Assembly: GCA_046758505.1 (NCBI GenBank)
Contig: JBHIAH010000029.1
Span: forward strand, 1-27,166
Direction of reading: 5' to 3'
DNA from: Candidatus Methylomirabilales bacterium
GTDB taxonomy: Bacteria; Methylomirabilota; Methylomirabilia; Methylomirabilales; CSP1-5
Length of the DNA: 27,166 bases
Shown piece after piece: positions 4,898 to 18,927 of the stretch. Both the position numbers and the translations under genes were made by a program. The first letter of the stretch is position 1. Each line of letters begins with the position of its first letter. The notes beneath the pieces are model-generated. The model made no database searches. It was not told the origin of the DNA and worked only from the letters and a program-made list of their open reading frames with translations.

Positions 4898-4926
4898 ATT
4901 ATAGCGGTCGTATGGGTCCTTTGCAA
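4898..4926 (-). promoter_or_regulatory. sigma-70-type promoter of the amidohydrolase
   Basis: Minus strand TTGCAA-N17-TATAAT. Confidence 0.65.
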
Positions 4927-4967
4927 AGAGGGCTGTGCGATCCGGAGGGCTGGGGGAGTGGATAGAG

Positions 4968-5432
4968 CAGCACGTTCGGTCCCTCGCTCCCGGCCTCCCG
5001 CGGCGACCCTGTTCGGCGGCTTACGCCCTGGGTCCCTCCGTGTTCACGATCCGTGCAAAGAAAGTCGGACACGGATCGCGCCTCGGTTTCCCAGGCCGTC
5101 GCCCGCCGAGGGGCCCCGCCGCTCCCGGCATGTCGCTTGGGACCTCCACGTGCTGCACCCGGGTGAGAAAGCAGAGAACTAGGTCACGGAGCCGAGGGAG
5201 GGGCGGATCCGCGAGGAAAGCGGAATCTGGTTTGCGGGGCGGCCAGGGGGAACCTCCCGCCGGAGCGCAGTGCAGGTGGGGGATGGCCGTCCTGGTGCCT
5301 GGCCGTGGCGCCTTGCGCGGAACTGTGCACTCCACGAACCATTTACCAGTGGAATTATTACGCTGACGAGCGGAACGGCCCTCCCGAGGATCAAGATACT
5401 GTGAGACCGGGAGCGAGGGACCGAAGGTGCTG
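4968..5432 (+). repeat. structured intergenic repeat element, copy 1, with 30-bp terminal inverted repeats (MITE-like or structured RNA)
   Basis: 4968-4997 and 5403-5432 are reverse complements at 28/30 positions. The interior (to ~5396) is colinear with 18015-18436. There is no credible ORF. Confidence 0.85.
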
Positions 5433-5520
5433 TCTCCTTCGGCCGGGGAAGACCCACTCCGCGAGCCCTTCCCGGCTCGAGTGCGATGGGGTGTCTCGGA
5501 GTAAGAGACCAAATGTGCCA

Positions 5521-5549
5521 TTGCCCTCCCTTTTCCTCTCGGGTATCAT
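5521..5549 (+). promoter_or_regulatory. sigma-70-type promoter of nth (near-leaderless)
   Basis: TTGCCC-N17-TATCAT, with the ATG only 8 nt downstream and no SD. Confidence 0.5.
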
Positions 5550-18014: not shown

Positions 18015-18927
18015 CAGCACCTTGGGTCCCTCGCTCCAAGCCTCCCGCGGCGGCCCTGTTCGGTGGCTTACGGCCTGGGTCCCTCCGTGTTCACGTTCCG
18101 TGCAGAGAGACGAAGCACGGATCGCGCCTCGGTTTCCCAGGCCGCCACTCGCCGGGGGACCCCGCCGCTCTCGGCAATGTCGCTCAGGGCCTGCAGGCGC
18201 TACCTGGGTAAGGAGAGCAGGAGACTAGGGCACGCAGCCGAGGGAGGGGTGGATCCGCGAGGAGAGCGGAATCTGGTTTGCGTTCGGCCGGGGTCCCGCC
18301 GCCGGAGCGAAGCGCAGGTGGGGGTGGCCGCCCTGTTGCCTAAGTGAGGGGATCTGCGCGGAACTCCTCGTCTGCGCATTGCTGACCAAGTGGAATTATT
18401 CCGCCGACGAGCGGGACGCCCCTCGCGAGGCCAAGAGGTAAGGAACGGGCAAGCACCGTGAAGTCCCTCGCTCCAAGCCTCCCGCGGCGGCCCTGTGTGG
18501 TCCGAAAGCGTCCGGACTCCCGGCATGTCGCTCGGGGCCTGCAGGTGCCGCCCAGGGCCTGGTTTGCCCATCAACGTTGAGCCCAGAGTCGAGGAGTGGC
18601 GGATCCGCGGATAAGAGATGGGGGCTCGGGGAGTGGGCCTTCGCCGGCGTAACATTCCACGGATCGGTCCGGCGAAACCCGTAGCTTCCGCGCCGAGCCG
18701 TTCGAGGCGGCAGCAGCACGGCCATCCCCCACCTCCACTTCGTTGCGGTGGGAGGGGCCCCCTGGCCGCCCACAAACCAGGTTCCGCCCGGCTCCAGGCC
18801 CATCTCCCCTCGCCCCCTTGCAGATCTTGCGGTTCTTGGAGTTTCGCTGAGGTTCCTTCGAAGCCCTCAGTCGAGCCGTCAACGGCGAAGGAATCGGTGG
18901 CCGGGAGCAAGCGGCCACAGGTGCTGC
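18015..18927. repeat. composite of the structured repeat element: full copy 18015-18436, shortened copy 18452-18610, inverted half-copy ~18622-18787 and degenerate right terminal IR ~18897-18927
   Basis: 18026-18059 and 18463-18496 are identical over 34 bp. The reverse complement of 18640-18787 aligns with 5220-5370. 18897-18927 is complementary to 18014-18044 at 23/31 positions. Confidence 0.8.

What the first reader, a model, noticed from the sequence alone, without database searches (positions are those of the whole stretch)
4968..5432. Unrecognised ~430-460 nt structured non-coding element with covarying helices and 30-bp terminal inverted repeats
Seen: the element is closed by a 28/30 IR (4968-4997 / 5403-5432) and recurs, diverged but colinear, at 18015-18436. 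Pairing is kept while sequence changes. GCGG/UCGC (5016-19 / 5099-5102) becomes GUGG/CCAC (18063-66 / 18145-48) around a fixed CUUA bulge. CUCCCGGC/GCCGAGGGAG becomes CUCUCGGC/GCCGAGGG and ACUCCCGGC/GUCGAGGAGU. CUCCCGCC/GGUGGGGG becomes CUCCCACC/GGUGGGGG. Short motifs stay conserved (GGAUCCGCG, GCGGAAUCUGGUUUG, GCGCGGAA, GUGGAAUUAUU). G-U wobbles favour the + strand as the folded strand. I see no target-site duplication and no transposase or RT nearby. Inference: a non-autonomous mobile element acting through folded RNA or ssDNA, or a multicopy structured ncRNA. I cannot match it to a family I know.
Basis: partly seen in the sequence, partly recalled or inferred. Interest (0 to 1): 0.8.

Follow-up and report, generated by a model that had tools for sequence, protein, structure and literature searches.

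The report
Modular folded-DNA repeats in NC10 bacteria
The stretch is one copy of an apparently undescribed family of ~190-base folded repeat modules, scattered at dozens of intergenic sites in one genus of NC10 bacteria, that look built to fold as single-stranded DNA on a chosen strand and are swapped between fixed sites, with no moving enzyme identified.

Summary
The sequence is real, but it is a composite, not one RNA. It joins module A (4968-5155), a 188-nt rod that folds on the MINUS strand, to module B (5189-5392), a branched ~200-nt fold best read on the PLUS strand, plus an inverted copy of A's end (the '30-bp IR', present in only 13 of 37 A+B composites). G000 has 37 such loci. Modules occur in 14 of 14 genomes of the genus; outside it the order-wide pattern found none (0 of 52). 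Covariation holds (80 A and 40 B copies). Conserved loops are purine-rich: C(GNA)G triloop in 40/40 B copies, tandem G·A pairs, GNA/GNNA 'zippers'. These are ssDNA-type motifs. Orthologous sites stay occupied while their cargo (A, B, two further modules C and D, inversions, deletions) changes. No target-site duplication, no Rfam match, no linked transposase, RT or nuclease. Best reading: a non-autonomous BIME/REPIN-like mosaic repeat acting as folded ssDNA, mobilised in trans by an unknown enzyme and reshuffled by recombination (0.55). A host function or an RNA role is not excluded. This scan has noted the same 'ssDNA grammar' in repeats of other genomes, but no look-alike of this family.

The parts
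4968..5155 (-). Module A: ~188-nt unbranched rod with purine-rich internal loops (GAGCGA/GAGCGA double tandem G.A at 5133-5138 with 4984-4989; GNNA/GNNA 4x4 loop; near-invariant inner asymmetric loop; variable apical loop)
5189..5392 (+). Module B: ~195-200-nt fold; covarying basal stem with tandem G.A, side hairpin capped by GNA/GNA zipper and C(GNA)G triloop (5265-5271), two variable ~20-nt segments around short conserved motifs
5403..5432 (+).
4942..4961 (-). Remnant of a module-B 3' arm left of the composite (outer inverted pair with 5438-5478); similar remnants stand at this site in G002, G009, G012
   Evidence: read by eye
5438..5478 (+). Remnant of a module-B 3' arm right of the composite
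   Evidence: ends approximate
4898..4927 (-). Sigma70-like site pointing away from the element toward the amidohydrolase gene (context, not part of the repeat)
   Evidence: gene family
5521..5549 (+). Sigma70-like site pointing away from the element toward the HhH-GPD (endonuclease III-like) gene (context)
   Evidence: gene family
18015..18201 (-). Second module A
18235..18433 (+). Second module B
18453..18552 (-). Truncated 'mini-A' (both arms, centre replaced by a small GAA/GAAA-capped hairpin); its start is an exact 34-nt direct repeat of 18026-18059
18618..18819 (-). Third module B, opposite orientation
   Evidence: (I1)
18896..18927 (+). Degenerate inverted copy of the A end closing the second cluster
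   Evidence: (I8, I11)

Best explanation
A genus-wide family of non-autonomous, modular palindromic repeats (works like BIME/REPIN/BOX mosaics, but with much longer units) whose functional form is a folded single DNA strand. Each module (A, B, C, D) is a self-closing hairpin or junction with a preferred strand. SHOWN: dispersion, strand asymmetry, covariation, ssDNA-type loop motifs, no TSD, cargo turnover at fixed intergenic sites. INFERRED: (1) the modules spread to many sites early in the genus; (2) new insertions are made from ssDNA exposed at replication or transcription by a structure-reading enzyme acting in trans, entering at the tip of short palindromes or of existing hairpins; (3) occupied sites are then rewritten by ectopic recombination/gene conversion between shared arms, inversion between inverted arms and microhomology deletion, which yields composites such as 4968-5432; (4) selection on the fold acts at the copying step. 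GUESS: the enzyme is a Y1 HUH (RAYT/TIRYT-like) transposase, the only multicopy mobile-type enzyme family seen in G000; nothing links it physically.
For: 37 loci in G000 (10 full A, 29 full B, 4 full D). 14/14 genomes of the genus, 0/52 other genomes of the order by exact pattern; covariance models 12 and 11 of 151 phylum genomes, all own genus but one E 8e-4 hit. Strand tests; 34 of 36 conserved unpaired positions of A are purines on the minus strand. B triloop C(GNA)G in 40/40 with N = C16, A13, G6, T5 and closing G-C to A-T in 5; GCGNAGC mini-hairpins and G.A-bracketed zippers are described DNA motifs (PMC13037366, PMC11014236, passages). 23 of 25 genome occurrences of the stem-zipper-triloop motif fall in modules. 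The same motif lies ~80 nt from the start of a 1.7-kb circovirus-like contig and next to a DUF559 gene in a Bacteroidetes repeat. Second window site: occupied in G000 and 8 of 8 congener loci examined, with different cargo; 66 of 81 shorter allele pairs at shared sites still hold a module. Modules nest in each other. One near-precise empty allele puts a 181-nt B at the centre of a 12-bp palindrome; B basal stems are copy-specific, mean 6.2 bp vs 4.3 shuffled, 0/3000. One contig of run X4 lacks 18026-18462.
Against: No enzyme gene is linked: 2 of 74 enzyme loci (Y1, DUF559, GIY-YIG, RT, IS110, tyrosine recombinase) had a module within the fetched DNA, one beside the xerC-like gene in the hslV operon and one ~800 bp from an integrase. 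The Y1 genes carry their own unrelated short IRs, and their number does not track module number (G005: 1 Y1, at least 17 A). No conserved GTAG/GTGG tag at the stem foot. Few young, near-identical copies within a genome; 50 of 80 A copies sit at sites shared between genomes and the tree is star-like, which fits old, host-maintained sites as well. The empty allele is a single case and may be a deletion; the X4 joint may be an assembly artefact across a 34-nt repeat. Tandem G.A pairs and purine-rich loops also occur in RNA (own knowledge). B's strand call by wobbles is weak (p 0.06).
Confidence: 0.55

Rival explanations
1. Domesticated chromosomal ssDNA sites: the modules (whatever their origin) are now kept by the host as strand-specific signals, e.g. 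primase/restart loading sites of the ssiA/G4-origin type or binding sites for a nucleoid or repair protein; opposite-strand A+B pairs would serve both strands.
For: A copies are 86-88% identical across genomes and sites, against 84% median for flanking (mostly coding) DNA; sites persist through cargo changes; mini-hairpins of this kind occur at phage G4 and RSF1010 ssiA priming sites and N4 promoters (PMC13037366, passages); divergent A/B geometry recalls ssiA/ssiB (recalled).
Against: Identity figures are inflated because top-scoring full-length copies were collected; copy number and module mix differ strongly between genomes (B matches 1 to at least 16); sites can be empty (nth site in G001, G006; 15 of 81 pairs); no genus-specific partner protein was identified; not found in the other genera searched.
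Confidence: 0.2
2. Multicopy structured RNAs (or RNA-mediated mobile units): each module is transcribed on its own folding strand and acts as ncRNA, antisense RNA or ribozyme.
For: Covariation and G.U-compatible changes are equally RNA-compatible; sequence alone hardly separates ssDNA from RNA motifs (stated in PMC5737381, passage); B has a branched fold with conserved single-stranded motifs.
Against: Invariant C(GNA)G triloop with free N; no conserved UUCG or GNRA cap in A or B seen in the alignments; window copy lies between outward promoters; folding strand mostly antisense to neighbours; opposite strands within one composite; RT absent from G000 and 3 of 4 congeners tested; Rfam negative.
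Confidence: 0.15
3. Classical MITE with 30-bp TIRs moved by a DDE transposase, or a relic of an IS110/IS200-IS605 (bridge/omega RNA), retron or integron system.
For: 30-bp IR closes 13 of 37 composites at 439-500 nt; B and D have fixed-length variable interiors that recall guide loops; IR-enclosed opposite-strand folds recall msr/msd (recalled).
Against: No TSD; IR is part of A's own stem; no arm pair enclosing an ORF in G000; IS110 0, TnpB 0, RT 0 in G000; variable segments are shared by copies at unrelated sites (by eye), so they are not per-site guides; strand order does not fit a retron transcript. DDE families were not searched.
Confidence: 0.1

Closest known systems
REP / BIME / REPIN with RAYT (TnpA-REP) (PMC8266576, PMC3116915, PMC6006769; passages read)
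   Same: Extragenic, multicopy, imperfect palindromes that fold as strand-specific ssDNA, form mosaics and inverted doublets, show compensatory changes, lack TSDs, persist long in genomes.
   Different: Units are 135-215 nt, not 20-60; no GTAG/GTGG foot; built on sheared G.A, GNA-triloop and zipper motifs; no cognate RAYT flanked by the repeat; only ~37 loci.
TIRYT / TnpA-Y1 subclass 2.1 elements (PMC3733652, PMC6006769; passages)
   Same: G000 holds 12 Y1 genes whose flanking IRs fit the GGGGWSAS-type description.
   Different: Those IRs are unrelated to modules A-C; they are only a candidate trans-acting enzyme.
BOX (Streptococcus pneumoniae), CIR (Caulobacter) and other MITE-like modular repeats (PMC3184786; table and passages)
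   Same: Modular intergenic repeats of 100-600 nt with interchangeable subunits and no own transposase.
   Different: No sequence comparison was possible; modules here fold on opposite strands, nest inside each other and are exchanged at fixed sites. The CIR paper (PMC166474) was not held.
Intrastrand-triplex TM repeats (PMC4666352; passages) and DUF559-flanking repeats
   Same: Intergenic structure-forming repeats at hypervariable sites; B's 20-23-nt zipper-triloop hairpin recurs in short repeats of Acidimicrobiia and Bacteroidetes, once beside DUF559.
   Different: Only that sub-hairpin is shared; B lacks the TM consensus; DUF559 is absent from G000 and the one clear copy in the genus has a TM-like repeat instead.
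ssDNA priming signals (phage G4 origin, RSF1010 ssiA/ssiB) and DNA mini-hairpins (PMC13037366; passages)
   Same: GNA mini-hairpin caps; paired signals on opposite strands.
   Different: Chromosomal, multicopy, no plasmid or phage match, no primase link tested.

Membership tests
REP/BIME/REPIN (RAYT-associated) | Extragenic, multicopy imperfect palindrome, strand-specific fold, mosaics | tested here: met
REP/BIME/REPIN (RAYT-associated) | Unit length about 20-60 nt | tested here: not met
   modules 135-224 positions
REP/BIME/REPIN (RAYT-associated) | GTAG/GTGG (or CGTC) tag at the 5' foot | tested here: not met
   GTAG 3/170 A, 2/90 B; GTGG 0/170, 4/90; CGTC 1/170, 6/90
REP/BIME/REPIN (RAYT-associated) | Cognate tnpA-REP gene flanked by the repeat | tested here: not met
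   0 of 28 Y1 loci from 6 genomes carry a module; draft genomes, 8 congeners not searched
REP/BIME/REPIN (RAYT-associated) | Cleavage by a Y1 HUH enzyme | not testable with these tools
   needs in vitro assay
MITE (DDE-derived) | Terminal inverted repeats on all full copies | tested here: not met
   13 of 37 A+B composites; many A or B alone
MITE (DDE-derived) | Target-site duplication | tested here: not met
   one empty B allele is compatible with none or a 2-nt GC repeat
MITE (DDE-derived) | Partner IS with the same ends | not tested
   DDE families were not searched; no multicopy DDE family noticed in the paralogue list (by eye)
Known Rfam RNA (incl. Flavo-1, HEARO, group I/II intron, ribozymes) | Covariance-model match at gathering score | tested here: not met
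   (best 20.4 bits vs 60)
Retron msr-msd | Adjacent reverse transcriptase | tested here: not met
   RT 0 in G000; 6 hits in G011, none with a module
IS110 bridge RNA / IS200-IS605 omega RNA | Recombinase or TnpB gene in genome next to the element | tested here: not met
   IS110 1 of 5 genomes, no module; TnpB 0 of 5; IscB not searched
Intrastrand-triplex TM / DUF559-flanking repeat | CCCTCNCCC..GGGNGAGGG..GGGNGAGGG consensus and DUF559 neighbour | tested here: not met
   consensus absent from A/B alignments (by eye); DUF559 0 in G000
Decayed protein gene | Frame-preserving indels, codon-periodic variability | tested here: not met
   1-nt indels dominate (41 of 51 in A, 72 of 90 in B), no 3-periodicity
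ssi priming signal | Primase-dependent priming on the folded strand | not testable with these tools
   needs assay

The most novel reading that the evidence does not exclude
A self-organising system of interchangeable ~190-nt ssDNA 'cassettes' that insert without target duplication into the tips of palindromes and of one another, read by a so far unknown structure-specific enzyme or host protein, and kept at fixed intergenic sites because the folded strands do a chromosomal job (priming, restart or nucleoid anchoring) on both strands. It would be a natural large structured ssDNA class, not just hairpins.
Probability: 0.2. Interest if true: 0.8.

Novelty: new variant of a known kind. Interest (0 to 1): 0.5.

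Why it matters
Natural ssDNA structures more complex than simple hairpins are rarely described (PMC5737381 says so for attC-like motifs, passage). This family offers 80+ and 40+ aligned copies with clear strand choice, free-N GNA triloops and G.A zippers, so the question 'DNA or RNA?' and 'what reads it?' can be tested directly. It also bears on how REP-like repeats persist and recombine without a linked transposase. If it is only a selfish mosaic repeat, its value is as a well-documented example and a lineage marker.

Tried and rejected
Rfam: window and three short stretches, nothing significant. Plasmid and phage blastn: only chance hits; A core pattern 0 in viral contigs. Enzyme hunts: Y1, DUF559 (60), GIY-YIG (80), RT (81), IS110 (82), tyrosine recombinase (83), TnpB (93), HNH (94; single conserved copy, flanks not read); module scan of 74 enzyme loci (84); recurring neighbours among 1564 flanking ORFs were housekeeping-type by eye; genes between paired A copies in metagenome loci were housekeeping-type; arm pairing found no ORF-sized cargo in G000; paralogue list showed Y1 as the only multicopy mobile-type family (by eye). 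DUF559 lead from L242 rejected for this genus. Copy-specific palindromic flanks for A: weak (1.29 vs 1.0 bp), not used. First B flank test was mis-anchored and redone. Search for precise empty junctions gave one case; most losses seen were imprecise, microhomology-type (output cut, only part seen). RNAalifold with DNA parameters was uninformative. Sequencing runs: no RNA holder listed, which says nothing on expression. Most joints are short-sided and reflect other copies. Literature searches found no description of this family; subscription papers and supplements (e.g. motif tables of PMC5737381, PMC8632094, PMC2864571) were not seen and could hold a related motif.

Full report
OBSERVATION. 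The 30-nt inverted repeat (4968-4997/5403-5432, 93%) and the colinear second copy (81%) are as described. The element lies between an amidohydrolase gene and an HhH-GPD gene, bounded by two outward-pointing sigma70-like sites, 3 found vs 0.1 expected. The second cluster follows a DUF4139-like gene and precedes an FAD/NAD oxidoreductase. Rfam gives nothing.

DISTRIBUTION. Blastn finds it in 13 of 13 congeners and 0 of 27 other relatives. Covariance models of A and B hit 12 and 11 of 151 phylum genomes, all in the genus but one marginal hit. An exact B pattern hits 14 of 66 genomes of the order, all 14 of the genus. In the GTDB scan 33 of 75 loci bear NC10/Methylomirabilota titles (one names CSP1-5), 13 'uncultured bacterium', 29 other taxa; I infer the window's lineage from these titles and from gene content. 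G000 has 37 loci: 10 full A, 29 full B, 4 full D.

ANATOMY. The finding is a composite. Module A (188 nt) is an unbranched rod. On 80 copies (80 of 81 full-length ones then in hand; one with an insertion left out) 19 of 59 named pairs show two-sided change and 92.8% of cells pair, above all 500 shuffles and all slid controls (two of my named pairs were wrong and count as unpaired). To avoid circularity I counted wobbles only on Watson-Crick pairs shared by the consensus folds of both strands: G.T exceeds A.C on the minus strand in 33 pairs against 7 (sign test 4e-5, relatedness ignored). 34 of 36 conserved unpaired bases are purines on that strand. GAGCGA faces GAGCGA (74/80 and 65/80) and GNNA faces GNNA (78/80 and 78/80). 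Module B (~195 nt; 40 copies) has 21 of 46 pairs with two-sided change, a C(GNA)G triloop in 40/40 with all four N, on a 2-bp stem that covaries, under a GGA/GCA-type 3x3 loop. Its wobble asymmetry toward plus is weak (23 vs 11 pairs); plus has the lower MFE in 37/40 (RNA) and 36/40 (DNA). A third rod, C (135 nt), occurs in congeners; a fourth, D (~216 nt), has B-type arms around a different ~137-nt interior and forms a tandem array on G000 C48. The 'right TIR' is an inverted copy of A's end, present in 13 of 37 A+B composites, without TSD.

DNA OR RNA. GCGNAGC/GCGNNAGC mini-hairpins are described as extraordinarily stable in DNA, the RNA form of the tetraloop version much less so, and occur at G4, ssiA and N4 sites (PMC13037366, passages); unpaired purines bracketed by sheared G.A pairs are DNA 'zippers' (PMC11014236, passages). 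23 of 25 genome-wide matches of the stem-zipper-triloop motif are in modules. The same hairpin appears near the start of a circovirus-like contig and in short repeats of other phyla, once upstream of DUF559 (only that ORF was tested). In co-directional gene pairs the folding strand is antisense in 37 of 52 A and 30 of 47 B cases, but sense in 6 of 8 C cases (home-made gene caller that mis-stranded at least one window gene; orthologous sites not collapsed). Against: tandem G.A pairs are common in RNA too (own knowledge), PMC5737381 (passage) warns that ssDNA and RNA motifs are hard to tell apart, and no expression data were available. I put DNA at about 4 to 1.

DYNAMICS. At the second window site G000 and all 8 congener loci examined carry an element between the same terminator-like hairpin and promoter-like site, with different contents: A+B, inverted A, end+C+inverted A, mini-A, mini-A+B. 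At the first site G001 and G006 are empty, G003 has another neighbour and no module, G002/G009/G012 hold a B-arm remnant, G004/G005/G008/G011 hold end+C+inverted A and G007 a deleted form. Of 81 shorter allele pairs at shared sites 66 still hold a module, 29 of 32 among pairs with flanks at least 90% identical (the pairs are redundant and all loci were fetched because they hold modules). A sits inside split B arms, D inside A, small GAA-capped hairpins inside the GNNA loops. One filled/empty pair places a 181-nt B at the centre of a 12-bp palindrome (L143 and L201 vs L367 and L327). One contig of run X4 joins 18025 to 18463 across an exact 34-nt repeat at main-strain depth; one study, possibly an assembly effect. 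A copies are 87.7% identical at the same site, 87.0% within a genome, 86.0% otherwise, against 83.9% for flanks; 50 of 80 are at shared sites; the tree is star-like with 7 of 77 branches supported. So the sites are old and the copies are either refreshed or individually conserved; top-hit sampling inflates these identities.

ENZYME. None found (see Tried and rejected). G000 has 12 Y1 genes with their own short IRs of the TIRYT/subclass 2.1 kind (PMC3733652, PMC6006769, passages), 5 GIY-YIG, 4 tyrosine recombinases, 1 HNH, and no RT, IS110, TnpB or DUF559 match. Of 74 enzyme loci 2 had a module nearby.

VERDICT. It works like a BIME/REPIN/BOX-type mosaic repeat but fails membership on length, tag and cognate enzyme; it is not a MITE, a known Rfam RNA, a retron or a decayed gene. 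I found no description in nine library searches; of eleven papers I read only keyword passages, no supplements. Earlier notes of this scan report the same GNA-triloop/tandem-G.A grammar in modular repeats of unrelated genomes (unchecked AI notes, seen after my reading was formed), and no look-alike of this family. New variant of a known kind; interest 0.5.

Noticed in passing
G000:C48:18040-18940 (between purC- and purS-like genes) and G000:C42:16720-16925: Module D: tandem array of three full units plus a partial one; B-type arms around a ~137-nt interior of nearly fixed length but variable sequence; two units are near-identical.
   Followed up: partly
L011-L020 (G000 Y1 loci): Twelve RAYT-like Y1 genes (231-347 aa open frames), each bounded by its own short inverted repeat of the GGGGWSAS type, i.e. 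TIRYT/subclass 2.1 elements.
   Followed up: partly
L280-L283, L285: Small GIY-YIG genes beside tRNA/tmRNA-like genes carry a separate palindromic repeat family; a piece of a similar repeat lies in the window near 18845-18885 (by eye).
   Followed up: no
L249:1390-1840 (G009): DUF559 gene with one in-frame TAG, flanked by triplex-type (TM-like) repeats.
   Followed up: partly
L175, L179, L180, L197, L204, L219, L227, L229, L232, L235, L240 (Acidimicrobiia titles), L238; L191, L198, L207, L211 (Bacteroidales titles); L173, L242: Short ~70-nt repeats sharing the GGA-zipper/GNA-triloop hairpin behind a C-run/G-run hairpin; tandem in L197, L179, L229; upstream of DUF559 in L242.
   Followed up: partly
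L248:60-120: A 1719-nt circovirus-like contig (capsid and helicase domains) has the same stem-zipper-triloop hairpin about 80 nt after its first bases, which read like a rolling-circle nonanucleotide (recalled).
   Followed up: partly
L178: A record titled Nitrospiraceae holds a typical B copy amid heptamer repeats; probably a mislabelled or mis-binned NC10 contig.
   Followed up: no
many module flanks, e.g. G000:C35:11100-11250, C33:7620-7800: Heptamer tandem repeats often abut the modules; already noted by this scan for this genome.
   Followed up: no
L293-L298 (G011): Six reverse-transcriptase matches on three contigs of one congener, none beside a module.
   Followed up: no
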